From Parcubacteria group bacterium (GTDB taxonomy: Bacteria; Patescibacteriota; Patescibacteriia; UBA9934; GWF2-40-263): a DNA stretch of 64,000 nt. Both the position numbers and the translations under genes were made by a program. Of this stretch, positions 32,234 to 54,585 are shown one piece after another (positions within the stretch are counted from its first letter, which is position 1; each line of letters begins with the position of its first letter). Location: positions 15,014-79,013 of the forward strand of contig JABMNZ010000008.1 of assembly GCA_013204395.1 (NCBI GenBank), in the 5' to 3' direction. The notes under the pieces are model-generated. The model had not been told where the DNA came from and made no database searches. It worked only from the letters and a program-made list of their open reading frames with translations.

Positions 32234-32235
32234 AT

Positions 32236-33174: not shown

Positions 33175-33180
33175 ACATGT

Positions 33181-36100
33181 GTGCGTACGATCATCAACGC
33201 AACTCGAAACATCTTATTAGTCGCGGTTCTAGCAACGGCGATTGTTATGGGTGCTTCACAGGTGTCGGCAGCGACGCTTACTGTAGGGAATGATTATTCT
33301 TCGACACTGCAAATTTCCCAGCAGGCGAACCATTCAGTGATCTTTACAACCCCAACAGGTATAGCAGAAGGTGAAACTCTTACGATTACTTTTGCCACAG
33401 CTTTCAACACATCTTCAATCACTGAGGACGATGTCGATATTGCTGACGATGGTGTTGACCTAACAACCAGCTCAACATGTGCGTCTACTGAGCAGGCATC
33501 AGTGTCAATTGCTTCTGATGTAGTGACGATTACTATTTGTGCTGGTGATGGCGGTGCAATTGCAGCAGCCAGCCAGGTTACTGTCGAGATTGGCACGAAC
33601 GCCTCTTCTTCAGGAACGGGTGCAAACAAAGCCACAAATCCATCAGGTGCTGGAACATATTTTGTAACTATAGCTGGAACGTTCAGTGATCGAGGTTCAA
33701 TAGCTCTTCCGATTGGTGGAGACGACAGTATTCCAGTCTCAGTGACGGTTCCTGAGGTGGAGAGTGGTGGTGGTGACACGCTAGAGGATTCAACCGCTCC
33801 ATCAATAAGCGGGTTAGTAGTTTCTTCAATATCATCGACTTCAGCCATTGTTTCGTGGAGTACAGACGAATCAGGGACTTCGGTGGTTAATTACGGACTG
33901 ACAGAATCGCTTGAGCTTGAAAGTTTTTCAGAGAGTGGTTATGCAACATCTCATGTTGTGACGATGACTGGTCTTGTGGAAGGTCAGACATATTACATAA
34001 GTGCTACTTCAGCAGATTCAATTGGAAATTCGGCGACTTCCAGCACAACAGCTTTCACAACCTTGGATCTTACTCCACCTGTACTTTCAGATATTGAAGT
34101 AATCGACATTACTTACGATTCTGCGCGAGTTACTTGGACAACTGATGAGTCTGCGAATAGCATCGTTTCATATGGCGAAACTGATGCATATCTATTGTCT
34201 GCATCTACCAGTGCATTCGTTACTTTGCACAGCGTTCTACTTTCTGGGTTGAGTGAAGGAACTGAATATCATTTTCAAGTTGGTTCAACCGATCAATCTT
34301 CAAACCAAGTTTTTTCAAGTGATGAAACGTTTACGACAGGTGAGAATCTCCCACCATCAAATGTTTCTGGATTGGTAATAGTGAGTGGAATAAGTAAGTT
34401 GTCACTTTCCTGGACGAATCCGACCGACGATGATTTGGCTGGAATTCGCGTGCTGTTTTGTGAAGATGAATATCCTGACAGTCCCACTGATACAGACTGT
34501 TCAATTACAAATTATGGTCTTGTTGAGGAAGCTACGTTATCGGGCTTAACAGCGGGGGTTACGTACTACCTGGGGGTATTTACTTATGATGATGTAGGGC
34601 AGTTTGCTTCTGGCGCGCTTGGAATTGGGTTACCAAGTGCTCCAGAAGAAGAGTTGCCCTCAGAAGAAGATGATTCTGAGGATGAGTCGGATGAAGATAC
34701 TGGCAGCGGAGACGATCCTGTGGATGAGCCCACAGACGATTCTGAGTCAGGTGATTCCGACGAAGGAGGCGATGACGGTGACAGCTCGGACACAGACGGT
34801 TCCACGGACCTGGCGGTTTTTTGTGGAGATGGTGTGTGTTCAGGGTCTGAATCTCAAGCATCGTGTCCAATCGATTGTGCCAGCGATAGTGAGCCAACCT
34901 CCCTGGGTGCGGAGGAAGGTGAGTTGTCAGATGGCGATATCGAATACTTAGTAGCAGATCGATCTATTTCGCTTGAGACCACCAGCTCCGGTGTGGTCGA
35001 AGTACTTCCCACAAGTACGCTAAGCGTTCAGATCCATGCACGTGAGCTGTCTGATAATGTCAGCTCTATACAGCTGTCAATTGGCAGCGAATTGTTCCTA
35101 CTGTCTCTCGATGAGACGCTCGTTCTTTACAACGCAGATGTTACCGTACCAGCCCAATCGGGCATTCAGCAGGTAACCGTTCTCGTTTTATACGATGACG
35201 GCTCCACTGAAACGGTTTCTTCATACCTGCGTGTAGTCACTCCAGGCTACATATATCAGGTCATCGATGGTGAAGAAGTCGCAGTAACAGACGCAAACAT
35301 TACACTCTATGAAGTTGTTGGTGGAGAACAAATTGTTTGGGATGGGTCCCCATACGATCAGTTCAACCCAATAACTGTTAACTCAGATGGAACATTCTCT
35401 TGGTATGTACCAAACGGTACATACATTGTAGAAGTTCAAGCAGAAGGTTTTGAGACTACAAATTCTGGCCAGCTTGTAATCACAAATTCGATTGTGAATC
35501 ATCGCATTGCCATCGCATCGTACGAGCGTGTGCAGGACGAGGATCCAGTTACTGATGCAGAATCTGAGGATGACGAAAAAGAAACTATTACCGTTATTGG
35601 TGTAATTGAGACAATGCTCGATTATAAACCACTTCAGGCGGTAAGGGAGTCCCTCGAAGTAGTTCGAGATCTTCCAGGTGTTGAAGGGGCAGCAGAGGTT
35701 TCTGTCCCCACACTTGCCATTACTGCAGGGGCAAGTGTGGTGATGCTTTCTGTCGCATTCGATTTCCTTCCTTTCCTACAATATCTTTTCACAGCGCCAG
35801 TACTATTTTTCTGGCGTCGACGTAGGAAGAGTTACGGGGTCGTTTATAACGCTATCTCCAAGACTCCAGTAGATCTTGCAGTGGTGCGTCTCTTCAAAGT
35901 CACGGCTCAAGATGAGGCGGCTGGTTTGCCTGGCCGTCTCGTCAAGAGTCGAGTTACAGATAAAGGGGGTAGATATTTCTTCCTGGTTGACCCAGGAAGG
36001 TATCGTATAACAGCTACAAAAGGTGGGTTTCAGTTCCCATCTGAGTACATGGCTGGAGAAAAGACAGACGGTCAGTATCTAGATGTTTACCATCTCGAGC

Positions 36101-36666
36101 CGATCGAAGTTACAGAGGCAAGTGCGGTTATCTCCGCAAATATTCCGCTCGATCCTCTGCAGCAAAGTTCTGCTCAGGCAGCTACTTCGTATAAGAGAGG
36201 TCGGCTTCTACGACACATGCAACACACAGTCGCGTTTGCAGGTGTGATAGCGGCAGTTATCTTCGCAATCATCCGCCCAACACCGTTTTCAGTAGGAATG
36301 ATTGTTATACAGCTCTGTGTGCTCGTTCTTGCAAAGCGTTTGGCACGCCCAAGGAAACCAATTAGCTGGGGAGTTGTTTACGACAAGGGCACTGGAAGAC
36401 CACTATCTAGAGTTGTTACTCGTATCTTTGAGCCAAAGTACAACAAGGTTCTTGAGACTCAAGTGACCGATAGCAAGGGTAGATACTCGTTCATGCTTGG
36501 ACCAAACACGTATTACGCCACCTTCCAAAAAGATGGGTTTCACACAGTCGAGGTTCGTCCAATTGATTACTCTCAGTTAAAGGAGCCAGTTGATTTCTCT
36601 GAGGAGGTTGGACTTGAACCAGACGTCACAGCATCAACACCACCACAGCCACCATCAAATATTTAG
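33181..36666 (+). CDS. Large (1161 aa) polytopic surface protein with three FN3-like domains, an acidic linker, a Cys-knot motif and three CarboxypepD_reg-like domains separated by TM helices
   Basis: Three repeated FN3-like units (…SWSTDESGTSVVNYG…, …TWTTDESANSIVSYG…, …SWTNPTDDD…). Linker EEDDSEDESDEDTGSGDD… Cys motif CGDGVCSGSESQASCPIDC. Three repeats of the type VTDANITLYEV…GTYIVEV. At least two multi-helix TM blocks. Confidence 0.7.
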   Translation: MRTIINATRNILLVAVLATAIVMGASQVSAATLTVGNDYSSTLQISQQANHSVIFTTPTGIAEGETLTITFATAFNTSSITEDDVDIADDGVDLTTSSTCASTEQASVSIASDVVTITICAGDGGAIAAASQVTVEIGTNASSSGTGANKATNPSGAGTYFVTIAGTFSDRGSIALPIGGDDSIPVSVTVPEVESGGGDTLEDSTAPSISGLVVSSISSTSAIVSWSTDESGTSVVNYGLTESLELESFSESGYATSHVVTMTGLVEGQTYYISATSADSIGNSATSSTTAFTTLDLTPPVLSDIEVIDITYDSARVTWTTDESANSIVSYGETDAYLLSASTSAFVTLHSVLLSGLSEGTEYHFQVGSTDQSSNQVFSSDETFTTGENLPPSNVSGLVIVSGISKLSLSWTNPTDDDLAGIRVLFCEDEYPDSPTDTDCSITNYGLVEEATLSGLTAGVTYYLGVFTYDDVGQFASGALGIGLPSAPEEELPSEEDDSEDESDEDTGSGDDPVDEPTDDSESGDSDEGGDDGDSSDTDGSTDLAVFCGDGVCSGSESQASCPIDCASDSEPTSLGAEEGELSDGDIEYLVADRSISLETTSSGVVEVLPTSTLSVQIHARELSDNVSSIQLSIGSELFLLSLDETLVLYNADVTVPAQSGIQQVTVLVLYDDGSTETVSSYLRVVTPGYIYQVIDGEEVAVTDANITLYEVVGGEQIVWDGSPYDQFNPITVNSDGTFSWYVPNGTYIVEVQAEGFETTNSGQLVITNSIVNHRIAIASYERVQDEDPVTDAESEDDEKETITVIGVIETMLDYKPLQAVRESLEVVRDLPGVEGAAEVSVPTLAITAGASVVMLSVAFDFLPFLQYLFTAPVLFFWRRRRKSYGVVYNAISKTPVDLAVVRLFKVTAQDEAAGLPGRLVKSRVTDKGGRYFFLVDPGRYRITATKGGFQFPSEYMAGEKTDGQYLDVYHLEPIEVTEASAVISANIPLDPLQQSSAQAATSYKRGRLLRHMQHTVAFAGVIAAVIFAIIRPTPFSVGMIVIQLCVLVLAKRLARPRKPISWGVVYDKGTGRPLSRVVTRIFEPKYNKVLETQVTDSKGRYSFMLGPNTYYATFQKDGFHTVEVRPIDYSQLKEPVDFSEEVGLEPDVTASTPPQPPSNI

Positions 36667-36673
36667 GAGGAAT

Positions 36674-39600
36674 ATGTTGCTTAAGAGAAGTACACAATTT
36701 GTAACACTCACACTCGTCATCCTTTCTTTGATGGCAGTGTTTGGGGTTGTGTTGTCTGCTGCTCCACCTAATGTGGTTACCTATCAAGGACGAGTTCTTG
36801 ATACTAATGGGGTACCATCAAGCAGCTCTAGCCTCACTATGAAGTTCTTCTTTTATGACGCATCGTCGTCTGGAACATGTCTCTGGTCAAACTCTAGTGC
36901 TGACTGTGATAGTAATACACCAGCCTCAACCACTGGTAGAAGCGTCACCCTAACAACAGGATTGTTTACTCAGAATCTCGGTGATACATCTGATTCTTTC
37001 GCAGCCGTTGCAGATTCTGTGTTTGGCGATAATACATCTGTCTATCTTGAGGTGGACATCGCCGGAGAAACACTCTCTCCAAGAAAGAGGCTTACGGCAG
37101 CACCGTATGCAATTAATGCTCAGCGTCTTGATGGTATAGATTCAACGGGATTTTTAGCCTCAACAGGAGATACGGGAACAGGAATCTTCGATTTCACAGC
37201 AGCAACACTTGCTGGTGCGTCCCCATTCGTATTCGAGGGGACAACAGCAAACGATTTTGAAACAACATTCACGTTCACAGACCCAACAGGTGACAATGTT
37301 TACACATTCAAAGACGGGTCAGGAACAATTGCGTTCACAAGCGACATTTCAGGGACGGGTCTTTGGGAAGATGGTGTGTCTGGTGTATTCGAAGATGATG
37401 AAGCTGTTATTATCGGATCAAATGCCGCATTTACCTATGGTTCTGGTGGCGTGGGAGATTTGCAAGTATTCGATGAACTTGAGGTAATGGGAGACACATT
37501 TATAGACAACGATCTTGTTGTGGGTGCATCGACAAGCTCGACCGAGACTCTTTCCCATACATCTTTTACGCTCGATGGTGATGATCTGTTCGTTGCTGGG
37601 ACATTAGGGGTTGAAGGAGTTGTTTATTCAGATGGAGGGTTTACAGCAAGTACAACAACAACGTTTGGTGCAGGCGCTATTACCACCACAGGCTCGACAG
37701 ACTTAGCTCTGACGATTGCCGGTGGTGATTTGACGTTTGCACAAAACACTACCATTGGTGATGGGGGTGACACCATCGCAATTAGCACATCTGACTGGAA
37801 CATTACAGCAACAGGAAATCTTTCTGGTATTGGGACGATTGCAACAGATGGTGATGCCACACTGGGTGCTGACCTCATAATCTCTTCAGGTGTACGTATC
37901 GGGACAGGATCAACTCCAGCTAGTTTTACTGCTCTAGCAAACGACAGCCTGTTTGTTGAAGGGGCTATAGAGGTAGATGGTGCTGCTCGCTTTGACTCAA
38001 CAATGGATATCAATGGCATTCCTTCCATTGGAGCAGACATTACCTTTAATGCTGCCACCCCAACTATTGTTATTACAAATGGAGAAACATTTGCAATTAC
38101 CGACGGAACAAATACACTTTTTTCTTTGGTGGATGGTGGAACTGGCGGGAACCTAATTCTTACTGGAGATCTCACGATTGCTGGGGATGATTTAACCATG
38201 GACACCAATACAGCGGGCTTTCTCTTGGTAGGTGATGGAACAAATTACAACCCAGTCGATATTAGTGGAGACATAGATTTAGATTCCTCGGGTGTTGCAA
38301 CTGTCCAAGCTAACTCCGTGGCCCTTTCCACAGACACAACTGGTAACTATGTTGCAACCGTTAGTGATGCTGGTAATGGCACCATTACCGTTGGAGGTGC
38401 TGCTGGAGAAGGAACCGTCATTACTCTTGATGCGGTAAACGTGAACTGTAACGATTGTCTAGACTTTGCTGAGCTCTCGGATGCCCTTACCCTAGACGCC
38501 TCCACATCCATAACCATGGATAGCACGGACCAACTTCTTATAACCAATGGAGGTACTGGAGACGTCATCTTCAATCTTTCTTCTACCGGAGACTTTGTTA
38601 TTCAAGATAATGGGACACCAAGCTTTACTGCTTCTGACAATGGAGCGTTTACGTTTGATGGTGCTGTTACATTTAATTCAGCAACCACACATACACTTGC
38701 CACTAGTGAGAGCATTGCGATATCCAATAATACGGCGACGGCAGACACTTTTGATATTTCGGTTACAGCAGCAGGTAATGATGCGCAAGAGATAAACTTC
38801 ACTCTCGGTAATGACGGAGACAATGACACAGTCAATGCCTTGGAGATCAACGTCACGTCTGCCACGACAGGTGAGGAGGATGTTATTCGGGGGTTACATA
38901 TCGCACCACTGTCTTCAGCTGATGCTAGCGTGACAGAACAAGCGCTTGTGATTGGCTCTGGCTGGGATACAAATTTGTTTTTCAATGATACGTCAACAGT
39001 TATTGAATTGGCTGATACTGGCGTAATCACGTGGAGAGAAGCTGGAGGTACTAATACCCTCATGACCCTCACAGATAATGCCAACGTCGGCGACTTGCTC
39101 ATCTCCGGTGATTTCACGATTCAAGGCGACAATCTAGATTCAGCAGGAGCCCCTCTTGTTCTAAATGCTACAGCCGCCGACGAAGTGCGTGTTGGTACAG
39201 GTACTCCTGGGGTGGCGACAGGTGCGGGGGACTTCTATGTCACAAGCGACATAGAAGCTGATGGAAATTTGAATATTGCTGGGTCTGCGACGATTGGAAG
39301 CCTTGTTTGTAATGACTGTTTTGACTTTACTGAGTTTGCTGATGCGCTTGCTTTAGACGCCTCCACATCCATAACCATGGATAGCACGGACCAACTTCTT
39401 GTAACCAATGGAGGTGCTGGAGACGTCATCTTCAACCTTTCTTCTTCTGGTGATTTCGTGATTCAAGATGGGGCTACGCCAATATTTACAGCTGGAGGCG
39501 ATGGCACGTTTACGTTTGATGGTGCCACAACATTTAACACAGATGTGACCTACACCTTAGTTGCGACAGAGAACGTGGCTATTACAAACACATCTGCAGA

Positions 39601-42600
39601 AACAGAAGTTCTAGATCTGACAGTAACTGCAGCAGAGAATGATGGGGCTGAGATTAATTTTACTCTTGGTAATGATGCTGATGCTGACATAGTAAACGCT
39701 CTTGAGATTCGAGCTACATCAGCTTCCACGGGTGATGCGGATGTGCTTAGGGGTATAAATATCGCCCAGCTTTCTTCCTCTGATCCTACTGTTTCAGAAA
39801 TTGCTCTTAGAATAGCGAATGGGTGGGATTCAAATCTTACGTTCGCAGACACATCAACATTTATTGATATCTTGGACACAGGAGTTTTTACATTTAGAGA
39901 GCTTGGTGGCAACAATACCCTCATGACCCTCACAGATAATGCCAACGTCGGAGATCTTGCGCTTACCGGTGACCTTACCGTTAATGGTGACGACATTTCG
40001 TCAGATTCAAATCTATCCATTGCGGCAACGGGGTATGTCCGTATTGGGGACTCTGGAACACCGGGTTCTGCATCTGATGACGATTCTCTTTATGTGGAGG
40101 GTAAGCTTGAAGTAGATGCAACATCAACCTTCGATGGTGTTGTACTTGGAAATAATGACACTACCTTCACTCTATCAGGAACAAATAATTTTCTTATTGA
40201 AAATGGAAGCGCTACTAGTGATTTATTTAGTGTTAAAATAAGTTCAGCACAAAGCAATGGTGAGACGATTCAGTTCGGTCTGGCAGATGATGGTGATGCA
40301 GATACTCTTTCTGCGCTTAATATAGCCGTAACGTCTGCAGCCACAGGTGATGCGGATGTGCTAAGTGCTCTTAACATTGCAAACCTAGCTTCAGCAGATG
40401 GGACGGTTATTGAGACAGCGATTATTATAGGAACTGGTTGGGATACGGGAATTTCCCTTGGAGCTAACTCAATTGTCGGCACAACTGGATTGATTGATTA
40501 CACCAACTTCGATGTTCTTGCTACGGGTGCAATTCAGGTAACACCAAACGTGGGACTAGATACCAATGCGGGGGGGGTGCTTTCTCTTGCTACTACAAAT
40601 GCGACTTCGATTACCACTGGTAACGCGCTGACAACATTCTCGCTTGCGGGCACAGGACTCACAACACTGAATATTGCTACAGCTAACTCTACGGCAGCCA
40701 CACTGAACCTTGCGACTTCTAATCAGGCAAACGTTATTAATATCGGAACGGGTACGGGTATCGATGATATTAATATTGGAGGAGGAGGAACGGGGGTTGA
40801 TACGATAAATATCGGAGATTCTACAGCAACAGTTGCTATACAAGGTGGTTCGATTACATTCACGCCAGGTGATGATGATGGTTCTGGAAGTGGTAGTGAA
40901 GGAGGATTGGTAAAGATGGAATTGAGTCACACCGGAAGCCTTGCTTATGCTCAAGACCCTCAATTTCTGATTGAAGCAGACGGTCCAAGTAATAATAACT
41001 TTACGGGCGTATTTAAGATTGTTCATGCTCCGCCGTCAGATCGATCCGGTGCCTTTGACTTTGCGACTCAGTATATTCAGTTTGACGGAGTGGCAACAAC
41101 AGACAACACGACCCACCAAGCCATCGTAATTGACGGGAACCTTGCAGATGATGGTTCGGATGATAATTTTTATGCCTACGCCGCAAGAATAAATCAGGGT
41201 GACACTTCAGATGTCGCGGTCACTGGGTATGGTGCTGTAGGAGTCATGATTATCAATGAAAATAACACGACAACAGATGCGGGAGACAACTTAGCTGGAT
41301 TCTATTATGACAATCAAGATACGGACGCGGTAACCGTCGATGCATTTAAAGCTGTGTCCAGCGGATCCGCTATTACAGACGGTCTAGATGTCTCCGATTC
41401 AGATATTGTAAATGGTGTGAACGTTGGAGAAAACTTTGTTCTCTATAATGTCTATAGAACGTATGATCTCTCTGGTTCTGGGCTTGTTTGGGAAGATACA
41501 GATGGTAATGACCTCATGATCCTCTCTGATGCGGCGAATGAAGGAGATCTGCTTGCCACTGGAGACATCACAGCAGATGATTTTATCTGTACTGACTGTC
41601 TTGATTTCGCTGAGCTTGCTGATGCCCTTACCGTAGACGCTTCCACGTCCGTCACAATGAATAGCACTGACCAACTTCTTTTCACAAACGGCGGTACTGG
41701 AGACATTATTTTCAATCTTTCATCCACCGGAGATTTTGTGATTCAAGATGGTGGGAACACACGGTTTAGTGTGAACGATTCAGGTGTGACGACAATTGGA
41801 ACAGGGTCAGCTCCGACGGCAGACATGTTAGCTGTTACAAATGCTGGTTTTGCTACAACGACAACAGATGTTAATGCAGCTTCATTCATACACACAGCCT
41901 CGAATGTATCTTCCTCAGCGGTTTACATTGACGGAGCTTTTGCATCTACTACAACTGGTTTGACCTACAACATCTTGGAACTTGGCGCGATTACTCCAAC
42001 CAATACAACAGGAACAGACAATGTGAATGGACTTTTTATTGGGATAATGACTGATGCAACTGTAACAATTAAGTCAGCGGCAATAGATATTTCTACTGGT
42101 TGGGATGTTGATTTCTCTCTCCAAAATTCAGAATTCGTCAGTAACTCTACTGATGGAAAAGTACGTTTTGGTGGGAGTGGAGGTGCAAGCGATACTGATC
42201 TTGTCTTTAATCTTGATGATGCAACTGGTCCAGTACTCCAGTCTACAAGTGATGAGATTGAAATTGATGCCACACTTACCGTTGATTTGATGAATGTTGG
42301 GGCAACCCAGTTTGCCTTATGCCACCCAAACAGCGACTTGATTGATGAGGCGATTGGTGATTGTTCCGGCGCCCCTACGGCTGATTACGCTGAGCAATAC
42401 CCTGTAGCTGCTGGAGTAGGTTTTGGTGATATCGTGGTTCCGTCTACTACCGTGGTTGTCACCAACGATGGTGATGAGATTGTTCAGATGGTTAAGAGCA
42501 GTGAGCCTTACTCTGGCCCTGTTGTCGGCATTGTTTCAGATAACTTTGGGGACTTTACCTCCGCTGGTTACAACATAGATGAAAGTGATAACCCAATGCC

Positions 42601-44431
42601 CGTAGCTCTTGTTGGTCGTGTTCCGGTGAAGGTGACGGCTGAGGGGGGTGATATTTCTGTGGGTGATTACCTAACAACATCATCAACTCCAGGTGCTGCC
42701 ATGCGCGCAACAAAGGTTGGTCGTGTAATTGGTATGGCCTTAAGTGATTGGGATGGTGTGTCTGCAACCGTCATGGTGCAGGTTAACAATTCCTGGTCCA
42801 TGGGAGATGTGATTGGTACGGACGGCGTTTCCACACTCGTTACTGATAACGTCGTTATTTCTCAGTTGAACGAGGCGACAGCGCAGGACACATCTTTCTC
42901 TAGTTACGGATTAGCTCTTAGAGGAAGCGCTTGGGATGGAGATGAGGCGCAAGCGGTTGAGATGATGCTTCAGAACGTTGTTGAAGACGAAGACAATTAT
43001 CGGCTTAGCGTTCGCAATACAGCTGATTCAGAAGTCGCTTATATTACAAACGAAGGAATCATGCGTATTGCAGGTGACATGGTTATTGGCGGCAACTTGT
43101 ATCCTTCAGATAGAGGAGTGCCACAGACGGACAAATATATTTATTACGATGGATCAGCGGGGCCAGGTGGAGACTTCATGCGTACCAACGCTAGCGGTTG
43201 GTCTACGGGGAGTTATGACTTTGCTGAAATGTTCCCATCCACGCAGAAACTAACAGCAGGTGAGTTGGTTGCCTTCTCGGGTAGTGGTCACAACGTACAA
43301 CGTGCAACAGGTGCAGAGGGTGAACAGCTTGCTGGAATCATTTCTACCCGTCCTGGGTTCTTGGCGGGCGAAAACATAGAAGGGGCGTATCCAGTGGCAT
43401 TAGCCGGTCGTGTTCCAACACGTGTAAGTACAGAAGGAGGAGCCATTGCCGTAGGTGATCCTCTTACCATTTCATCTTCACAAGGAATTGCCATGAAGGC
43501 GAAAGAAGCTGGCATGATCGTTGGTTATGCCCTTGAGGCTTATCGCGGTGGATCAGATAACTTGATTCTTACCTATGTGAATCTTAGTTACTGGGTTGGT
43601 GAGACAACAAGCGTCATGCCTGGTACAGATAATCGCGCCTCTGGCTTTGCCACATCTGGAACGAGCAACTTCACCAGCCTGAACATGAGCGGCAACATCT
43701 ATATGGGAACGAATTCCATCACTGGAATCGGTCGTCTTGAGGGTCTTACTGATGCTTGGTCTATTGAGCAGGATGGAACCATTACAACCACTGGTTTGAT
43801 TGTGAGTCTCGCAGAAAATTATCAGGGGGACCAAGTCGAGACCATGGCGGTTACATCTCCTGAGGTCATGATCACTCTTACCGGCACAGCGATTCTTGAA
43901 GACGGTCAGGCTGAAGTTCGATTCGAACAAGTCGCACCAGAATTTAACGACATAATTAGTGCAGAGGCACCGATTCGAGTACTCGTTACTCCAAGTGGAC
44001 CGGTTTCTCTCTATGTCTCAGAAAAAGATCAGAACCACTTTGTGGTAACTCGATTTGCTGGTGAGGGAGATGTCGAATTCGATTGGATGGTCACCGCCTA
44101 TCGTCGTGGTTACGAGCCAGAAGAAATCGAAGAAGTGATAGAGGAGGAGATGGTTGATGAAGTTATCATCGAACCTGTCGTTGAAACGGTGCTCGTGGAG
44201 GACGAACTATCCACTGAGCCTGTCGAAGTGGTCGTAGAAGAAGTCGTCGAAGAGATTGAAGTTATCCAGCCAGTCGAGACAGATCTCACGACATTGTTTA
44301 TTGAGTTAACAGAAGAAGTAGTCGAAGATCCTGTAGATCCTGCAACTCCGGAGAGCCCGGATGAAATCCTTATTGATGAGACAAGTGAGGTTGATGGCGG
44401 CGAATCAGTCGAGACACCACCAAACTTGTAA
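36674..44431 (+). CDS. Giant (about 2585 aa from ATG 36674) secreted repetitive surface protein, adhesin/fibre-like, with a duplicated C-terminal module
   Basis: RBS AGGAGG then ATG 36674 and signal peptide MLLKRSTQFVTLTLVILSLMAVFG. Long internal DNA and protein repeats (CNDCLDFAELSDALTLDASTSITMDSTDQLL[IV]TNGG[TA]GDVIFNLSS[ST]GDFVIQD, three times). A duplicated C-terminal module begins DYAEQYPVAAGVGFGDIVVP... and again YDFAEMFPSTQKLTAGELVAF... The acidic EEVVEE tail ends the protein. Confidence 0.75.
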   Translation: MLLKRSTQFVTLTLVILSLMAVFGVVLSAAPPNVVTYQGRVLDTNGVPSSSSSLTMKFFFYDASSSGTCLWSNSSADCDSNTPASTTGRSVTLTTGLFTQNLGDTSDSFAAVADSVFGDNTSVYLEVDIAGETLSPRKRLTAAPYAINAQRLDGIDSTGFLASTGDTGTGIFDFTAATLAGASPFVFEGTTANDFETTFTFTDPTGDNVYTFKDGSGTIAFTSDISGTGLWEDGVSGVFEDDEAVIIGSNAAFTYGSGGVGDLQVFDELEVMGDTFIDNDLVVGASTSSTETLSHTSFTLDGDDLFVAGTLGVEGVVYSDGGFTASTTTTFGAGAITTTGSTDLALTIAGGDLTFAQNTTIGDGGDTIAISTSDWNITATGNLSGIGTIATDGDATLGADLIISSGVRIGTGSTPASFTALANDSLFVEGAIEVDGAARFDSTMDINGIPSIGADITFNAATPTIVITNGETFAITDGTNTLFSLVDGGTGGNLILTGDLTIAGDDLTMDTNTAGFLLVGDGTNYNPVDISGDIDLDSSGVATVQANSVALSTDTTGNYVATVSDAGNGTITVGGAAGEGTVITLDAVNVNCNDCLDFAELSDALTLDASTSITMDSTDQLLITNGGTGDVIFNLSSTGDFVIQDNGTPSFTASDNGAFTFDGAVTFNSATTHTLATSESIAISNNTATADTFDISVTAAGNDAQEINFTLGNDGDNDTVNALEINVTSATTGEEDVIRGLHIAPLSSADASVTEQALVIGSGWDTNLFFNDTSTVIELADTGVITWREAGGTNTLMTLTDNANVGDLLISGDFTIQGDNLDSAGAPLVLNATAADEVRVGTGTPGVATGAGDFYVTSDIEADGNLNIAGSATIGSLVCNDCFDFTEFADALALDASTSITMDSTDQLLVTNGGAGDVIFNLSSSGDFVIQDGATPIFTAGGDGTFTFDGATTFNTDVTYTLVATENVAITNTSAETEVLDLTVTAAENDGAEINFTLGNDADADIVNALEIRATSASTGDADVLRGINIAQLSSSDPTVSEIALRIANGWDSNLTFADTSTFIDILDTGVFTFRELGGNNTLMTLTDNANVGDLALTGDLTVNGDDISSDSNLSIAATGYVRIGDSGTPGSASDDDSLYVEGKLEVDATSTFDGVVLGNNDTTFTLSGTNNFLIENGSATSDLFSVKISSAQSNGETIQFGLADDGDADTLSALNIAVTSAATGDADVLSALNIANLASADGTVIETAIIIGTGWDTGISLGANSIVGTTGLIDYTNFDVLATGAIQVTPNVGLDTNAGGVLSLATTNATSITTGNALTTFSLAGTGLTTLNIATANSTAATLNLATSNQANVINIGTGTGIDDINIGGGGTGVDTINIGDSTATVAIQGGSITFTPGDDDGSGSGSEGGLVKMELSHTGSLAYAQDPQFLIEADGPSNNNFTGVFKIVHAPPSDRSGAFDFATQYIQFDGVATTDNTTHQAIVIDGNLADDGSDDNFYAYAARINQGDTSDVAVTGYGAVGVMIINENNTTTDAGDNLAGFYYDNQDTDAVTVDAFKAVSSGSAITDGLDVSDSDIVNGVNVGENFVLYNVYRTYDLSGSGLVWEDTDGNDLMILSDAANEGDLLATGDITADDFICTDCLDFAELADALTVDASTSVTMNSTDQLLFTNGGTGDIIFNLSSTGDFVIQDGGNTRFSVNDSGVTTIGTGSAPTADMLAVTNAGFATTTTDVNAASFIHTASNVSSSAVYIDGAFASTTTGLTYNILELGAITPTNTTGTDNVNGLFIGIMTDATVTIKSAAIDISTGWDVDFSLQNSEFVSNSTDGKVRFGGSGGASDTDLVFNLDDATGPVLQSTSDEIEIDATLTVDLMNVGATQFALCHPNSDLIDEAIGDCSGAPTADYAEQYPVAAGVGFGDIVVPSTTVVVTNDGDEIVQMVKSSEPYSGPVVGIVSDNFGDFTSAGYNIDESDNPMPVALVGRVPVKVTAEGGDISVGDYLTTSSTPGAAMRATKVGRVIGMALSDWDGVSATVMVQVNNSWSMGDVIGTDGVSTLVTDNVVISQLNEATAQDTSFSSYGLALRGSAWDGDEAQAVEMMLQNVVEDEDNYRLSVRNTADSEVAYITNEGIMRIAGDMVIGGNLYPSDRGVPQTDKYIYYDGSAGPGGDFMRTNASGWSTGSYDFAEMFPSTQKLTAGELVAFSGSGHNVQRATGAEGEQLAGIISTRPGFLAGENIEGAYPVALAGRVPTRVSTEGGAIAVGDPLTISSSQGIAMKAKEAGMIVGYALEAYRGGSDNLILTYVNLSYWVGETTSVMPGTDNRASGFATSGTSNFTSLNMSGNIYMGTNSITGIGRLEGLTDAWSIEQDGTITTTGLIVSLAENYQGDQVETMAVTSPEVMITLTGTAILEDGQAEVRFEQVAPEFNDIISAEAPIRVLVTPSGPVSLYVSEKDQNHFVVTRFAGEGDVEFDWMVTAYRRGYEPEEIEEVIEEEMVDEVIIEPVVETVLVEDELSTEPVEVVVEEVVEEIEVIQPVETDLTTLFIELTEEVVEDPVDPATPESPDEILIDETSEVDGGESVETPPNL
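38495..38539 (+). repeat. 45-nt segment identical to 39356-39400, at the core of the roughly 160-nt units repeated at about 38447, 39308 and 41588 inside the giant gene
   Basis: gacgcctccacatccataaccatggatagcacggaccaacttctt is identical in both copies. A second family, accctcatgaccctcacagataatgccaacgtcgg, occurs at about 39055 and about 39917. Confidence 0.7.
39356..39400 (+). repeat. Second copy of the 45-nt identical intragenic repeat
   Basis: See the 38495 entry. Confidence 0.7.
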
Positions 44432-45021: not shown

Positions 45022-47400
45022 GTGCATATGAATTCTTGGGGAGAACATTTGCGATCAGCTACACGAGGTTGTTTATACCTGCTCGTTTTTTTATTGCCAT
45101 TGATCGCCTTGTCGGTCTCGCTTGAACCCCTTGAATTCAACAAACAAACACTTCTCTTGCTGCTGACATCAGGGGCTGCTCTGTGTTGGCTGGGATCCAT
45201 GGTCGTTGAAAAAAGACTTACGTTCAAACGAGGGCTCATGAACGCACTGCCGCTTGTGTGGGTGGGCGCGTTTATTCTTCCCGCCATCTACTCCATTGCT
45301 CCCTATGTATCTTGGGTTGGCACACACTCTCAGCAGTATGTAAGTGTTTTAACCGCTGGAGCTGTGGCTGTCTTGATGTACCTACTGGCTAACACCTCTA
45401 CAACCAGGGCACATCATCAGCGCATGCACAGTGTCATAACACTCTCAGCAGCCGCGACAGCCCTAGCGACGACATCATTACTGTTCTTCGGTGTTTCTTT
45501 TTTTGGGTCACTTACAGAATCACTGGCTTTTAATAGCGTCGGAACATTAGCGAGCTTGGCTATTTTTCTTACTGCCGTAACGAGCTTTCTTATTGCTTCT
45601 TTGGTGGCACATGAAAAGGAAGATTCGTTATTAGCCGATGGCGTTTGGGGAAAATTTCAAAAGTTGTTCATTCTATTTCTTGCGATCGACACATTTGTTA
45701 TTTTGCTTTTGATCGATAATAAGGGGCTGTGGCTCCTGTGGGTTGTGGCGATGCTCATCCCATTTGTCTTTGCCTTTTTTCGCGCAAAGGATTTTTCGCA
45801 CCAAGAGAGACTGCTTTTCCCGCTGGTTCTTGCCGTTGCTGCCTTACCCTTCTGGTTTTTCTTAGCCTCTCCACTCACGATCGCGATTCCCATTGAAGTG
45901 AGTCCTGACACAGAAAGTTCGATGGCCATTGCCCAGCAGGCCCTTGATACGCATTCTAGTAGTTATGGATCTGGACCCGGAACCTATGCCATGGACTACG
46001 CACGGTTCCACGATGAACGTGTTAATCAAACAGACTTTTGGAACACAAGATTTGATCGAGCTTCATCTCACGTACTCACATTGCTCCCAACCATGGGTAC
46101 CCTTGGAGTGAGTTTGCTTGGTTTGTTTGTACTTATTTTGTTTATGAGAGCCATCCACCAAACATTGGTGAAACCAGGGCGGGATGAATGGTTGGAGAGT
46201 TTCGTCCACATAACTCCTTGGATCGTTCTAGTAATAAGCGCCTTTCTTTTCCCCTGGAACATGACCCTTACGGTATTATTTGGTGTCTTCTCTGGGCTTC
46301 TTTTATCACAAACACTTCCGCGGTCAACAAACAGATCATTTGATAAGTCTCCCGCCCTTGCTCTTCTTGCCTCAACGCTATTAGTGGCTCTTTCACTGGG
46401 GCTCTTAGTGGGTGTGTTTGTTACCACTCAACGCTATGTGGCTCAGCGAGCATTTGCCCAGGCTGTAGAAATCGATCGGTCTGGAGGTGAGCTAAAGGAT
46501 ATTGTGGCTTCCCTGGACAAAGCAACATCTCTTAATCGATTTGACGATACTTATTTCCGTAATCTTGCTGATGCACTTTTGCTTCGCACCGATGAAGAAC
46601 TCAAGGGGGTTAATAGTGTTGATACCCTCACACCTGAAAGTGCTCAGTACATCCAATCGCTTGTTGCCGCAACTGTTAATGCAGCGGCGCGCGCCACAGA
46701 TCTCTCACCAGAGAATGCATTAAATTGGCTTGTTCGTGGTCGGATTTATCAAGAACTTATTCCCATCATGAGCACGGCATCAGAATTTTCCATTTCGAGT
46801 TTTGTTCGGGCGGTGGAACTTGAACCACTGAATCCTTCGCACTGGACTGAACTAGGAATAGCTTATCTCGCCGTCGCCCAGCATATCCAACCAATGACAG
46901 CGGCAGAAGATAAAGAGGCGGCGGCTCAGGCACTTACCACGCACACAGAGTTTCTTGCTTCTGCTCAAAGTTCATTTATTAGGGCGACGGAACTAAAACC
47001 AAACTACGCTCAAGCTCACTATCAACTATCATTGGCTTTTCAGAGGCAGGGTCGCATTGATGAGGCTATTACAAAAATGGAAAGCGTGGCAGCTTATAAT
47101 CAAATTGATGTTGGTGTGCTATTCCAGTTGGGTCTCCTATACCTACAAAGAGGGGATGCTGGTGATGTGGCACTCGCTCAAGCTGCTCTAGAGAGAACTA
47201 TTTCTTTAGCCCCAAGTTATGCAAATGCTTACTGGTTCTTAGCAACGGTGTACGAGGCACAGGGAGATCTTAGTCGCGCAGTGCAAGCAGTTGAGGCTGT
47301 TCTGAGTCTTGAGCCAAATAATCGTCTAGTACAAACACGTCTAGATCGTCTCCTGCAAGGTAATCCAACTGGGGAGTTACCAGAGGCACTAGTAGAATAA
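45022..47400 (+). CDS. Polytopic membrane protein (O-antigen ligase/Wzy-like) fused to C-terminal TPR repeats. GTG 45022 is the track start; an ATG at 45028 is also possible
   Basis: The N-terminal roughly 450 aa holds 10 or more TM helices. The C-terminal roughly 300 aa has TPR-like repeats (AQAHYQLSLAFQRQGRIDEAI..., ANAYWFLATVYEAQGDLSRAV...). Confidence 0.65.
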   Translation: MHMNSWGEHLRSATRGCLYLLVFLLPLIALSVSLEPLEFNKQTLLLLLTSGAALCWLGSMVVEKRLTFKRGLMNALPLVWVGAFILPAIYSIAPYVSWVGTHSQQYVSVLTAGAVAVLMYLLANTSTTRAHHQRMHSVITLSAAATALATTSLLFFGVSFFGSLTESLAFNSVGTLASLAIFLTAVTSFLIASLVAHEKEDSLLADGVWGKFQKLFILFLAIDTFVILLLIDNKGLWLLWVVAMLIPFVFAFFRAKDFSHQERLLFPLVLAVAALPFWFFLASPLTIAIPIEVSPDTESSMAIAQQALDTHSSSYGSGPGTYAMDYARFHDERVNQTDFWNTRFDRASSHVLTLLPTMGTLGVSLLGLFVLILFMRAIHQTLVKPGRDEWLESFVHITPWIVLVISAFLFPWNMTLTVLFGVFSGLLLSQTLPRSTNRSFDKSPALALLASTLLVALSLGLLVGVFVTTQRYVAQRAFAQAVEIDRSGGELKDIVASLDKATSLNRFDDTYFRNLADALLLRTDEELKGVNSVDTLTPESAQYIQSLVAATVNAAARATDLSPENALNWLVRGRIYQELIPIMSTASEFSISSFVRAVELEPLNPSHWTELGIAYLAVAQHIQPMTAAEDKEAAAQALTTHTEFLASAQSSFIRATELKPNYAQAHYQLSLAFQRQGRIDEAITKMESVAAYNQIDVGVLFQLGLLYLQRGDAGDVALAQAALERTISLAPSYANAYWFLATVYEAQGDLSRAVQAVEAVLSLEPNNRLVQTRLDRLLQGNPTGELPEALVE

Positions 47401-47581: not shown

Positions 47582-47657
<76 letters not shown>

Positions 47658-47856
47658 ATAACGATCTGCAGGATACCGTAAAGTTTTTCTCCTAGCAAAC
47701 CAATCGGAAAAAGAAAACCACCGCAGCCCGTCAAGATCGACGAACTACGGTGGAACACCCTGGTTACTCGTGCGAGGGGGATCCTCACCAGGGTGTTAGT
47801 GACTTGTCATGGACCCATCGTCCATTGAGTCGTGGTTATTGAATGTTGCTTGTCCT

Positions 47857-49117: not shown

Positions 49118-49143
49118 GGATTTTCCTCCTCTATTGCATTGCG

Positions 49144-54532: not shown

Positions 54533-54585
54533 AGCACGCCTGAAGTGAGCCAATCCCGCGAATTACGTCGCGGGTTTTTTATATC

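What the first reader, a model, noticed from the sequence alone, without database searches (positions are those of the whole stretch)
36674..44431. Giant repetitive protein with near-identical intragenic DNA repeats and a duplicated C-terminal module
The gene contains 45-nt stretches that are 100 % identical (38495-38539 and 39356-39400), inside roughly 160-nt units repeated three times. A second repeat family lies at about 39055 and 39917.

The C-terminal end carries two copies of a module beginning D-[YF]-AE-[QM]-[YF]-P. Each is followed by ...PVAL(V/A)GRVP(V/T)(K/R)V(T/S)(A/T)EGG(D/A)I(S/A)VGD(Y/P)LT.SS. The layout resembles fibre-tip or intramolecular-chaperone modules of tail-fibre-like proteins.

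Perfect repeats in an otherwise diverged gene suggest ongoing recombination or gene conversion, possibly a variable surface antigen.
Basis: seen in the sequence. Interest (0 to 1): 0.6.

Follow-up and report, generated by a model that had tools for sequence, protein, structure and literature searches.

The report
Giant phage-fibre-like surface protein of Uhrbacteria
This 2,585-residue gene from an uncultured ultrasmall (CPR/Patescibacteria) bacterium most likely encodes a long cell-surface fibre built like a phage tail fibre, with a shaft that keeps being reshuffled by recombination between its own repeats, making it a candidate for how these bacteria recognise what they attach to.

Summary
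38493-38539 and 39354-39400 are identical over 47 nt. They lie in one 861-nt (287-aa) tandem unit that is about 70% identical overall. A third partial copy starts at 41588.

Two C-terminal modules start at D1904 (DYAE) and D2182 (DFAE). A profile of them matches the phi29 gp12 self-cleaving autochaperone (Peptidase_G2, beta-tulip fold), not S74. The cleaved phi29 domain begins DFAEYFES.

The gene (NQV89026.1, "hypothetical") belongs to a large family, mostly Ca. Uhrbacteria, with at least 491 loci in genome contigs. Members are 1,090-3,280 aa in the 80 loci read. They share a Bdellovibrio-MAT-like N-terminal domain (below cut-off), a hypervariable shaft and a conserved roughly 700-aa C-terminal cassette with two modules (78 of 80 loci). 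A five-gene chromosomal cluster is syntenic.

Synonymous sites are near saturation between the two units, except in the identical patch (30/35 identical codons against 54/112). That indicates gene conversion.

A close relative (L081) is 92-98% identical in the cassette but mosaic in the shaft. The switch falls at the DYAE site.

Verdict: a real feature and a new variant of a known kind. Cleavage, trimer state and an adhesin role are inferred.

The parts
36674..44431 (+). Whole gene, 2,585 aa (NQV89026.1, annotated as a hypothetical protein). Extremely acidic: net charge about -310, K 0.7%. Rich in Thr, Gly, Ala and Asp.
36665..36670 (+). AGGAGG ribosome-binding site. It overlaps the stop codon (36664-36666) of the upstream 1,161-aa gene, which suggests operon-style coupling.
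36674..36763 (+). N-terminal signal peptide or signal anchor (MLLKRSTQFVTLTLVILSLMAVFGVVLSAA). The only strongly hydrophobic N-terminal segment.
   Evidence: hydropathy; inference for export
36734..37159 (+). Conserved beta-rich N-terminal domain (aa 21-162) with a remote match to NCBIfam Bdello_MAT_N. Proposed cell-proximal attachment domain.
   Evidence: E 1.5e-3, model 4-159 of 162; E 1.4e-7, 31.4 bits against cut-off 60; 21 of 34 homologues match; conserved in 45 of the loci compared
37271..42382 (+). Hypervariable shaft (aa 200-1903). Few or no relatives align here, and it contains the intragenic repeats.
   Evidence: 0-12 of the loci compared align across aa 350-1850; 12 database homologues only
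38447..39307 (+). Tandem unit A (aa 592-878, 287 aa). Begins with a CxxC motif (CNDCLDF).
39308..40168 (+). Tandem unit B (aa 879-1165). 71% nt identity over 670 nt and 66% aa identity (aa 601-800 vs 888-1087) to unit A.
40115..40501 (+). Partial further copy of the distal half of the unit (aa 1148-1276; 39-54% aa identity to units A and B).
41588..42184 (+). Unit C (aa 1639-1837). Its 55-aa head is 78-85% identical to the heads of A and B; the rest is only about 32-39% identical.
38493..38539 (+). 47-nt exact patch, copy 1. It lies inside the conversion tract, roughly aa 598-640.
39354..39400 (+). 47-nt exact patch, copy 2.
39053..39090 (+). 38-nt exact patch, copy 1. Its partner is at 39914-39951, the same 861-nt offset.
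39914..39951 (+). 38-nt exact patch, copy 2.
42383..42832 (+). Autochaperone-like module 1 (aa 1904-2053). It starts with D1904-Y-A-E1907, a putative cleavage site N-terminal to D1904. Identity to the close relative L081 jumps from about 55% to about 95% exactly here.
42833..43216 (+). Conserved inter-module beta segment (aa 2054-2181), including the near-invariant LYPSDRG..QT.KYIYYDG...TNASGWSTGSY lead-in to module 2.
43217..43612 (+). Autochaperone-like module 2 (aa 2182-2313). It starts with D2182-F-A-E2185. Best matches are phi29 gp12 D4, Peptidase_G2 and Phage_cement_2.
43673..44113 (+). Conserved C-terminal beta-sandwich domain (aa 2334-2480). aa 2403-2474 match the last domain of the cyanophage Pam1 tailspike and Pfam K1-lyase_C.
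   Evidence: 7eea, E 7e-5; 6 of 20 members; phrog_6616 tail protein, 9e-7; pLDDT about 90
44114..44428 (+). Acidic, low-complexity Glu/Val/Pro-rich tail (aa 2481-2585; 29.5% E).
31328..36666 (+). Three syntenic upstream genes. A 301-aa secreted protein, a 312-aa protein with a signal peptide and a C-terminal TM anchor, and a 1,161-aa fn3/CarboxypepD_reg protein.
45022..47400 (+). Syntenic downstream gene: 792 aa, about 13 predicted TM helices plus C-terminal TPR repeats.

Best explanation
The gene encodes a very long, highly acidic cell-surface fibre of a Patescibacteria (Ca. Uhrbacteria-like) bacterium. It is assembled in the way phage tail fibres and tailspikes are, and is organised like the Bdellovibrio MAT fibres.

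Proposed layout:
- An N-terminal export signal and a conserved domain of about 130 aa keep one end at the cell (inferred).
- About 1,700 residues of Thr/Gly/Asp-rich repetitive shaft project outward (inferred).
- The conserved C-terminal 700 residues form an assembly cassette. It holds two phi29-gp12-D4-type (Peptidase_G2, beta-tulip) autochaperone modules, a short beta stalk between them, a tailspike-type terminal beta-sandwich and an acidic tail. Homology and fold are shown.

Proposed mechanism: the cassette nucleates trimerisation from the C-terminus. It then cuts itself off N-terminal to the invariant Asp of D-[YF]-A-E, at D1904 and/or D2182, as the phi29 domain does. This exposes the variable region just upstream as the distal tip (inferred).

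The shaft-coding DNA diversifies through recombination among its own repeats. Short-tract gene conversion is shown here. Unit gain and loss and segment shuffling are shown between relatives. Each lineage therefore displays a different fibre on constant ends.

The most likely use is recognition of, or adhesion to, a partner cell or surface (inferred from analogy and from the CPR lifestyle).
For: Modules:
- The module profile hits 3gqh, the cleaved phi29 D4 whose chain starts DFAEYFES (E 2.8e-5). It also hits full-length gp12 6qz9 (1.3e-4), the Dpo31 tailspike chaperone domain D4 28nb (3.3e-4) and 3suc. In 3suc the motif reads DFAQ, and the entry is titled 'pre-mature' gp12.
- D, A and E of the motif are invariant across 30 module sequences. 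D.AE occurs in 76 of 78 first modules and DFAE in 78 of 78 second modules.
- Pfam G2 matches 11 of 30 modules (best 2.8e-8). Phage_cement_2 scores 26.9 bits against GA 24 for module 2.
- PHROG 6427 matches at 5e-11.
- The AF2 cassette model has domain pLDDT around 90. Foldseek PDB hits are 3suc, cement proteins and phi29 gp8.5, all at probability 1.0. BFVD gives 68 hits at E <= 1e-3, including 'Preneck appendage protein' models with TM 0.63-0.64.

Terminal domain: Pam1 tailspike 7eea at E 7e-5, K1-lyase_C in 6 of 20 members, and a PHROG tail protein.

N-domain: Bdello_MAT_N at E 1.4e-7; 21 of 34 homologues match. The MAT architecture is described in PMC10769870.

Family and context:
- At least 491 loci, mostly Uhrbacteria. 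Lengths are 1,090-3,280 aa, and up to 5,476 aa among representatives.
- Ends are conserved and the middle is variable.
- The five-gene cluster is syntenic. Chromosomal neighbours are PolA, HolA, RmuC and tRNAs.

Recombination:
- Codon test p = 7e-5, and the 47-nt run exceeds every shuffle.
- Within-genome copies are more alike than their counterparts in relatives. Copy number is 0-5.
- Exact intragenic repeats reach 239 nt in relatives.
- L081 has a 92-98% identical cassette but a permuted shaft with insertions and deletions. The identity switch falls at GAPxA|DYAE, as expected if that site is a module junction.

Background: the phi29 IMC domain is absent from the mature virion (PMC9863714). 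D4 is a tandem beta-tulip autochaperone with reported homologues in bacterial adhesion proteins (bioRxiv 10.1101/216911).
Against: - No experiment bears on export, trimer state, cleavage or binding.
- The window's own modules fall just below Pfam's G2 cut-off (21.8 against 25 bits). The PDB Foldseek E-values are only about 1e-3.
- The MAT_N match is far below NCBIfam's cut-off (31 against 60 bits). A profile search of the N-domain returned no Bdellovibrio proteins.
- Unlike known IMC domains, the modules are not terminal. There are two of them, and a conserved domain plus an acidic tail follow. This is unexplained if the cassette is merely discarded.
- The AF2 model of a repeat unit was low-confidence and nearly structureless (pLDDT 65.5), so a beta-helical or trimeric shaft is not shown.
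- Most genomes carry one locus, which is unlike the 21-paralogue MAT repertoire.
- Strain-level variation could not be examined. The 90% cluster is a singleton and no near-identical allele was found.
Confidence: 0.6

Rival explanations
1. The fibre and its phage-type domains are the same, but the beta-tulip modules do not cleave. They act as permanent trimerisation or 'cement-like' clamps. The conserved terminal beta-sandwich with its acidic tail is the functional distal end (or the wall-binding end), and the variable shaft is only a spacer or decoy.
For: Module 2 passes Pfam's Phage_cement_2 threshold (26.9 against 24 bits). The top Foldseek PDB hits are capsid cement proteins, which are not proteases. 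The modules are internal, and a strongly conserved Pam1-tailspike-like domain follows them. That domain is retained in the solved Pam1 tailspike chain. The conserved cassette would be wasted if it were shed.
Against: The D-x-A-E motif that marks the N-terminus of the cleaved phi29 domain is invariant in both modules across the family. Module 2's lead-in (WSTGSY|DFAEMFPS) is near-invariant. The conserved/variable boundary in a close relative sits exactly at the motif. That pattern is the one seen for removable IMC domains.
Confidence: 0.25
2. The protein is a structural envelope component (an S-layer-like, sheath or matrix fibre) of the CPR cell rather than a recognition adhesin. Its variability reflects escape from phages or grazers, not partner specificity.
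For: There is one conserved locus per genome in most Uhrbacteria, in a fixed five-gene cluster with other secreted or membrane proteins and a 13-TM/TPR protein. The composition is extremely acidic and Thr/Ser-rich. The ends are conserved and the exposed middle is variable.
Against: The domain content is that of receptor-binding fibres, with a MAT_N-like N-domain. No S-layer (SLH or similar) or wall-binding domain was detected.
Confidence: 0.2
3. The gene is a tail-fibre gene of a prophage, tailocin or other phage-derived particle that happens to lie in this contig.
For: The cassette domains have their best characterised relatives in phages. The upstream 1,161-aa protein weakly hits a 'minor tail protein' PHROG. 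A tRNA and a high-GC block lie just downstream.
Against: No capsid, portal, terminase, sheath, tube or baseplate genes were seen. The three upstream cluster genes gave no structural-gene PHROG hit other than that one weak match, and the Pfam-scanned flanking genes are PolA, HolA and RmuC. The protein has an N-terminal signal peptide. The same five-gene cluster is syntenic in dozens of Uhrbacteria genomes with divergence that tracks the neighbours. In 50,697 phage records only 11 distant partial matches appear, none covering 80% or more of the query.
Confidence: 0.05
4. The near-identical repeats are an assembly artefact (collapsed or chimeric joins across repeats), or reflect nothing more than strong protein-level constraint.
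For: This is a metagenome-assembled contig. A 47-nt exact repeat could mislead a short-k de Bruijn assembler. The patch is also the most protein-conserved part of the unit.
Against: The frame stays open for 7.7 kb. The L001 protein aligns colinearly across both tandem units, and L081 keeps homologous units in a rearranged order. Conditioning on identical amino acids still gives 30/35 identical codons against 54/112 elsewhere and 0.39 expected from codon usage. Similar exact intragenic repeats occur in independently assembled relatives.
Confidence: 0.04

Closest known systems
Bacteriophage phi29 pre-neck appendage (tailspike) gp12, domain D4: Peptidase_G2 / PF11962 intramolecular autochaperone (PDB 3gqh, 3suc, 6qz9)
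   Same: Each module aligns from its first residue with D4. D-F-A-E corresponds to the N-terminus of the cleaved phi29 domain, followed by the same G-x-[IV]-S and [LV]-G-[RQ]-[VI] strands. The fold is beta-tulip type. The module sits C-terminal to a long fibrous region.
   Different: There are two complete modules in tandem, separated by a 128-aa stalk, and they are followed by another domain and an acidic tail. They are therefore not at the C-terminus. The host protein is a 2,585-aa cellular, signal-peptide-bearing protein, not a virion protein. The window sequence scores just below Pfam's cut-off. Cleavage and ATP dependence are untested.
Bdellovibrio bacteriovorus MAT (mosaic adhesive trimer) fibres (Caulton et al. 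2024, PMC10769870; NCBIfam NF053851 Bdello_MAT_N)
   Same: [quoted passage not shown] The protein is mosaic, with one end kept constant. The N-domain gives remote HMM matches (E 1.4e-7; 21 of 34 family members). Foldseek also lists Bd2439 fibre tips.
   Different: The chaperone is G2 type and doubled, not S74. The variable part is the shaft or sub-terminal region, while the C-terminal 700 aa are conserved. Most genomes hold one locus (rarely two) instead of 21 paralogues. The size is 2-5 times larger. The organism is a monoderm-like CPR bacterium. The N-domain match is well below the curated cut-off, so membership is not established.
Peptidase_S74 (PF13884) C-terminal intramolecular chaperone domains of endosialidases and the T5 L-shaped tail fibre
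   Same: The logic is the same: a conserved C-terminal chaperone that trimerises a variable fibre and is then removed. Some distant homologues of this family do carry PF13884.
   Different: No S74 match was found in this protein. No S-D-x-x-x-K motif is present: the conserved 'SDRGVPQTDK' has its Lys out of register.
Phage capsid cement/decoration proteins with a beta-tulip fold (PF09956 Phage_cement_2; Pam3 8hdt, Borrelia BB1 8pkh; phi29 head fibre gp8.5)
   Same: Module 2 passes the PF09956 threshold when scanned alone (26.9 bits). These proteins are the top Foldseek PDB hits. They share a trimer-forming beta-tulip.
   Different: Those are small (about 150-280 aa) stand-alone capsid proteins. 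Here the fold is embedded twice in a giant secreted protein and keeps the G2 D-x-A-E motif.
C-terminal domain of the cyanophage Pam1 tailspike (PDB 7eea) / Pfam K1-lyase_C (PF24146)
   Same: aa 2403-2474 align with the last 65 residues of the Pam1 tailspike (E 7e-5). Six of 20 family members hit K1-lyase_C.
   Different: The function of this small beta-sandwich is unknown even in the phages. Here it follows a chaperone module instead of a catalytic beta-helix.

Membership tests
Peptidase_G2 / phi29 gp12 D4-type intramolecular chaperone | Sequence match to PF11962 at or above the gathering score | tested here: inconclusive
   Window module 2 scores 21.8 bits, E 1.4e-4, against GA 25. Module 1 has no hit. 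At family level 11 of 30 modules match at E <= 0.01 (best 2.8e-8), and several full-length homologues carry precomputed PF11962. The module profile against the phi29 D4 PDB sequence gives E 2.8e-5.
Peptidase_G2 / phi29 gp12 D4-type intramolecular chaperone | Asp at the cleavage site and Glu three residues later (D-x-x-E) at the start of the domain | tested here: met
   D1904-Y-A-E1907 and D2182-F-A-E2185. D, A and E are invariant in 30 modules. D.AE occurs in 76 of 78 first modules and DFAE in 78 of 78 second modules in relatives. The motif aligns to the first residues of the cleaved phi29 chain 3gqh and to DFAQ in the 'pre-mature' 3suc. That Asp and Glu are the catalytic residues is from my own knowledge of MEROPS family G2 and Xiang et al. 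2009, a paper I could not open.
Peptidase_G2 / phi29 gp12 D4-type intramolecular chaperone | Beta-tulip fold | tested here: met
   The AF2 module domains have pLDDT around 90. Foldseek hits 3suc, cement proteins and gp8.5 at probability 1.0. BFVD 'Preneck appendage protein' models give TM 0.63-0.64 at 24-26% identity. The beta-tulip description of D4 comes from bioRxiv 10.1101/216911.
Peptidase_G2 / phi29 gp12 D4-type intramolecular chaperone | Single domain at the extreme C-terminus of the fibre or spike | tested here: not met
   There are two modules (aa 1904-2053 and 2182-2313). About 270 further residues follow them.
Peptidase_G2 / phi29 gp12 D4-type intramolecular chaperone | Autoproteolytic release after trimerisation | not testable with these tools
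   This needs expression, SDS-PAGE/MS and site-directed mutants.
Peptidase_S74 intramolecular chaperone | PF13884 match and an S-D-x-x-x-K Ser/Lys dyad | tested here: not met
   No PF13884 hit appears at E <= 0.1 for the whole protein, at E <= 10 for the C-terminal segments, or at E <= 0.01 for the modules. The conserved SDRGVPQTDK has Lys at +9, not +5.
Bdellovibrio MAT fibre family | Signal peptide followed by the conserved N-domain of about 130 aa (NF053851) | tested here: inconclusive
   The match is E 1.4e-7 and 31.4 bits, but the curated cut-off is 60. In the whole-protein scan the hit covers model positions 4-159 of 162. 21 of 34 family members match. A profile search found no Bdellovibrio proteins.
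Bdellovibrio MAT fibre family | Intertwined trimeric beta-helix or beta-prism shaft | tested here: inconclusive
   The monomer AF2 model of one repeat unit has pLDDT 65.5 and almost no secondary structure. No multimer prediction was available.
Bdellovibrio MAT fibre family | Constant N-terminus with diversified C-terminal tips across many paralogues in one genome | tested here: not met
   The C-terminal 700 aa are the most conserved part and the middle is variable. Only this gene in the 64-kb window holds the domains. Two loci on one contig were seen once, and two loci in one genome a second time.
Phage cement/decoration protein (PF09956) | Match at or above the gathering score | tested here: met
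   Module 2 scanned alone scores 26.9 bits against GA 24. In a longer segment it scores 23.0 against 24. This is a fold-level relationship only; the context is not a capsid.

The most novel reading that the evidence does not exclude
The conserved five-gene Uhrbacteria locus encodes the host-recognition apparatus of these episymbiotic CPR bacteria, and this gene is its phage-RBP-like fibre. The specificity-determining shaft and tip are continually rewritten by intragenic gene conversion and unit shuffling. Maturation is a two-step self-cleavage by a doubled G2 autochaperone cassette, which would release a separate trimeric C-terminal fragment with its own function. This would be a cellular, chromosomally fixed counterpart of phage receptor-binding-protein diversification.
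Probability: 0.2. Interest if true: 0.75.

Novelty: new variant of a known kind. Interest (0 to 1): 0.5.

Why it matters
How CPR/Patescibacteria find and hold their partners is largely unknown outside type IV pili in Saccharibacteria (abstract of PMC11623550).

This gene belongs to a large, unannotated family found in at least 491 loci of genome contigs. Most of the 80 loci read come from Ca. Uhrbacteria or other Patescibacteria genomes. The family combines three things: a phage-style self-processing assembly cassette, a cell-anchoring end that resembles that of predatory-bacterium MAT fibres, and a shaft that differs even between close relatives.

If it is a recognition fibre, it gives a concrete, testable candidate for host specificity in an uncultured lineage. 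The fragments are expressible and the cleavage sites are defined.

It would also be a second, independent case of bacteria adopting phage receptor-binding architecture for cell-cell interaction.

The doubled G2 autochaperone is an architectural oddity that could inform how long trimeric fibres are folded.

Tried and rejected
- Whole-protein Pfam and NCBIfam scans gave nothing above threshold. Only isolated segments and family profiles were informative.
- Single-sequence phmmer of the C-terminal 710 aa against PDB gave only noise. The profile was needed.
- AF2 of the repeat unit (aa 560-870) with a shallow alignment gave pLDDT 65.5. It was judged unusable, so no fold search was run on it.
- The search for alleles of the shaft in metagenome contigs found 7 loci. 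Only one is a close relative (L081) and none is near-identical. The 90%-identity cluster of the protein is a singleton. Strain-level copy-number variation could therefore not be tested.
- The exact-protein lookup with the window reference failed but worked with P0133.
- The N-domain profile search returned only short Patescibacteria, Elusimicrobia and Zixibacteria fragments and no Bdellovibrio protein. It did not strengthen the MAT link.
- tblastn against 50,697 phage records found only 11 weak partial hits. Recent acquisition from a known phage is rejected.
- TRF found no short-period tandem array apart from a 15-nt, 1.9-copy stretch in the acidic tail.
- The Xiang et al. 2009 phi29 gp12 paper could not be opened. 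Statements on catalytic residues rest on the PDB sequences seen here and on my own knowledge.
- Considered and dropped: a diversity-generating retroelement target (no RT or template repeat seen in the ORF lists), a polymorphic toxin (no toxin domain), and an RTX or Ig-repeat fibrillar adhesin (no such domains).


Full report
WHAT IS THERE

The finding lies in a single ORF, 36674-44431 on the + strand, encoding 2,585 aa. The ATG is preceded by AGGAGG at 36665-36670, which overlaps the stop codon of the upstream gene. The identical protein is in public collections as NQV89026.1, [quoted passage not shown]. It sits on a 170,854-bp contig from JGI sample 3300032736 and is a singleton at 90% identity.

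The surroundings are chromosomal. PolA, the Pol III delta subunit, RmuC and four tRNAs lie in the window.

The protein is extremely acidic, with a net charge of about -310 and only 0.7% Lys. It is rich in Thr, Gly, Ala and Asp. It has ten cysteines in five pairs, three of them CxxC motifs at the head of each repeat unit.

CHECKING THE OBSERVATION

The exact repeat is real and is 47 nt long: 38493-38539 = 39354-39400. With up to three mismatches there is no other copy in the window, and shuffled sequence gives none.

The three "about 160-nt units" are at 38447, 39308 and 41588. The first two are the heads of one 861-nt (287-aa) tandem unit. 38447-39111 against 39308-39972 is 71% identical over 670 nt, and the proteins are 66% identical.

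It has the same 861-nt offset, so it is not a separate family.

At protein level there is also a partial extra copy (aa 1148-1276) and a distant unit C (aa 1639-1837).

The two C-terminal modules begin at D1904 (DYAEQYP) and D2182 (DFAEMFP). The PVAL[VA]GRVP strands are at aa 1976 and 2240. The modules are 36% identical, E = 1.6e-16.

ARE THE PERFECT PATCHES MORE THAN CHANCE OR CONSTRAINT?

A run of 47 matches exceeded the longest run in all 20,000 shuffles of the A/B match vector (mean 16, maximum 41).

I then conditioned on positions where the two units encode the same amino acid. Codons are identical at 30 of 35 such positions inside the patch (aa 598-640) and at 54 of 112 elsewhere in the same alignment (Fisher p = 7e-5). 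The gene's codon usage predicts 0.39 at saturation (windowed profile).

The duplication is therefore old, with synonymous sites near saturation, but short tracts have been homogenised recently. This is the signature of gene conversion.

Three further observations agree.
- The 55-aa unit heads within the window are 78-85% identical to each other. Unit C is only 55% identical to its positional counterpart in the L001 protein, which is 58% identical to the window protein over aa 1-1268.
- The three heads in L014 likewise resemble each other most.
- Independently assembled relatives carry their own exact intragenic repeats of 45 to 239 nt.

WHAT THE C-TERMINAL MODULES ARE

Single-sequence searches were nearly blind. 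Pfam on the second-module segment gave two sub-threshold hits, Peptidase_G2 (21.8 bits, GA 25) and Phage_cement_2 (23 bits, GA 24).

A search of the C-terminal 710 aa found 279 homologues, mostly Ca. Uhrbacteria or other Patescibacteria. Several carry precomputed PF11962.

I built a profile from 30 module sequences, covering both positions, and searched it against PDB sequences. The hits were:
- the cleaved phi29 gp12 domain D4 (3gqh, E = 2.8e-5);
- full-length gp12 (6qz9, 1.3e-4);
- "chaperon domain D4 for tailspike protein Dpo31" (28nb, 3.3e-4);
- 3suc (3.6e-3).

The 3gqh chain begins with DFAEYFES, which aligns residue for residue with DFAEMFPS. 3suc, titled "pre-mature" gp12, reads DFAQ at the same place.

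D, A and E of the motif are invariant in all 30 modules.

Other lines of evidence agree.
- Pfam G2 matches 11 of 30 modules (best 2.8e-8). Module 2 alone passes the Phage_cement_2 threshold.
- PHROGs gives phrog_6427 at 5e-11 for module 2.
- An AlphaFold model of aa 1880-2500 has mean pLDDT 77, with the four domains near 90 and disordered linkers.
- Foldseek against PDB returns capsid cement proteins, 3suc and the phi29 head fibre at probability 1.0, although E is only about 1e-3.
- Foldseek against BFVD returns 68 hits at E <= 1e-3 (best 1e-10). These include "Preneck appendage protein" models with TM 0.63-0.64, along with tail proteins and tail fibres.

The literature describes D4 as a tandem beta-tulip "autochaperone" required for trimerisation, with homologues already noted in "some bacterial adhesion proteins" (bioRxiv 10.1101/216911). 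It is absent from the mature virion (PMC9863714).

THE REST OF THE CASSETTE

Between the modules lies a conserved 128-aa beta segment. Its lead-in to module 2 (…TNASGWSTGSY|DFAEMFPS) is nearly invariant.

After module 2 comes a beta-sandwich. aa 2403-2474 match the last 65 residues of the cyanophage Pam1 tailspike (7eea, E = 7e-5). The domain also matches Pfam K1-lyase_C in 6 of 20 members and a PHROG tail protein (9e-7).

The final 105 residues form a Glu/Val/Pro-rich acidic tail.

THE N-TERMINUS

A hydrophobic signal or anchor segment is followed by a conserved domain, aa 21-162. It matches NCBIfam Bdello_MAT_N at E = 1.4e-7 when the first 200 aa are scanned. 21 of 34 family members match (best 3.6e-9), but all fall well below the curated cut-off of 60 bits.

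MAT fibres of Bdellovibrio have a signal peptide, a conserved beta-rich N-domain of about 130 aa thought to sit at the predator surface, an intertwined trimeric shaft and phage-related tips. Thirteen of the 21 end in a self-cleaving S74 chaperone (PMC10769870).

A profile search with the N-domain returned only short fragments and no Bdellovibrio protein. I therefore treat the homology as remote and unproven.

THE FAMILY AND ITS LOCUS

A scan of one genome per species found at least 491 loci. The 80 kept are nearly all Ca. Uhrbacteria or Patescibacteria. Many "uncultured Gammaproteobacteria" record titles are evidently generic labels.

The complete ORFs range from about 1,090 to 3,280 aa. A full HMMER scan of 1.84 billion representative proteins found 13,055 at E <= 1e-3 and 531 at E <= 1e-30, with lengths up to 5,476 aa.

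Conservation is bipartite. Residues 1-200 and about 1860-2500 align in most relatives, while residues 350-1850 align in 0-12 of them.

78 of 80 loci have exactly two modules with the motif intact. The module duplication is therefore ancient and fixed.

The gene sits in a syntenic five-gene cluster:
- a 301-aa secreted protein;
- a 312-aa protein with a signal peptide and a C-terminal TM anchor;
- a protein of about 1,160 aa with fn3 and CarboxypepD_reg domains;
- the fibre;
- a protein of about 790 aa with some 13 TM helices and C-terminal TPRs.

In 50,697 phage records only 11 distant partial matches exist. The window holds no second copy of either conserved domain. This argues against a prophage gene.

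A NATURAL EXPERIMENT

Metagenome contig L081 carries a close relative. Its TPR neighbour is 88.5% identical to the window's, and the cassette is 92-98% identical. The shaft is nonetheless mosaic:
- homologous segments appear in a different order;
- identity falls to 40-75%;
- about 420 aa have no counterpart in the window;
- the window's unit-C head is missing.

In a residue-level alignment, identity jumps from about 55% to about 95% exactly at GAPxA|DYAEQYP. The putative cleavage site is thus also the recombination boundary between a variable tip and a constant cassette. That is the pattern expected for a removable chaperone attached to a diversifying receptor-binding region.

INTERPRETATION AND LIMITS

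Shown:
- the repeats and their conversion signature;
- homology and fold of the modules with the phi29-type autochaperone;
- the phage-tailspike nature of the terminal domain;
- the family architecture, synteny and shaft hypervariability.

Inferred:
- export and anchoring through the N-terminus;
- a trimeric fibrous shaft (the AF2 monomer of a unit was uninformative);
- self-cleavage at D1904 and/or D2182;
- an adhesin or recognition role.

Unexplained:
- why there are two complete chaperone modules;
- why a conserved domain and an acidic tail follow them.

Two rivals remain open. A non-cleaving "cement-like" role for the modules is a live alternative. An envelope-structure role, rather than an adhesin role, cannot be excluded either.

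VERDICT

This is a real, non-artefactual feature.

It is a new variant of a known kind. It is a phage-fibre-like, MAT-like bacterial surface fibre, but it differs in several ways: it has a doubled G2 cassette, it keeps its C-terminus constant, it is fixed as one syntenic locus in a CPR lineage, and it is unannotated.

Interest is moderate (0.5). It would be higher if the fibre proves to be the host-recognition device of these episymbionts.

Noticed in passing
window 47585-54600: A tRNA gene (47585-47657, - strand) sits just after the TPR gene. It is followed by a block of 57-60% GC (48-54 kb), against about 45% in the flanks. The ORFs there are Arg/Glu/Ala-rich and have no Pfam hits. This looks like a foreign island integrated at a tRNA. 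In relative L081 the alignment runs to window 47416, and the last 40 nt of that contig match the tRNA region (47627-47666).
   Followed up: partly
window 31328-36666 and 45022-47400: The fibre gene is the fourth gene of a five-gene cluster that is syntenic across dozens of Uhrbacteria genomes. The downstream protein has about 13 predicted TM helices plus TPR repeats and no family assignment for its membrane part. It could be a glycosyltransferase- or ligase-like partner for the Thr/Ser-rich fibre. The 312-aa protein has a signal peptide and a C-terminal TM anchor. The 1,161-aa protein weakly hits a 'minor tail protein' PHROG.
   Followed up: partly
L081 (JGI24915J38486_100242) 1-7945: This close relative has a cassette 92-98% identical to the window's. 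Its fibre gene contains about 420 aa (L081 protein residues ~541-960) with no similarity to the window protein, and its homologous shaft segments are in permuted order.
   Followed up: partly
L040 and L051 (both on JACPHX010000016.1, about 20 kb apart); L047 and L049 (same MAG, MGDT01): A few Uhrbacteria genomes carry two paralogous fibre loci. One pair lies on the same contig, so the family is not strictly single-copy.
   Followed up: no
L054 4913/5696 (239 nt), L051 7730/8288 (134 nt), L064 (several of 32-62 nt): Relatives have much longer exact intragenic repeats than the window. Very recent unit duplication or conversion therefore seems to be a recurring property of the family.
   Followed up: no
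one search list: P0235 (5,476 aa), P0241 (4,619 aa), P0198 (4,559 aa): Some family members with the same C-terminal cassette are about twice the size of the window protein.
   Followed up: no
record titles; P0012: Many MAGs that hold this Uhrbacteria-type locus are titled 'uncultured Gammaproteobacteria bacterium' (binchicken TPA assemblies). One 77%-identical fragment is labelled Nitrospira sp. These are probably generic or mis-binned labels rather than a true taxonomic spread.
   Followed up: no
window 1-64000 (2-kb bins): GC content swings between 41% and 60% along the window. Peaks are at 4-6 kb, 20-26 kb, 48-54 kb and 62-64 kb. This is unusually patchy for a small CPR genome.
   Followed up: no
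window 42320-42364 (aa 1883-1897) and the CxxC motifs at aa 592, 879 and 1639: All ten cysteines come in close pairs. One pair sits 7-21 residues before the putative cleavage site, and a CxDC[LF]DF motif opens every repeat unit. This could mean disulfide staples or metal sites that mark module boundaries.
   Followed up: no
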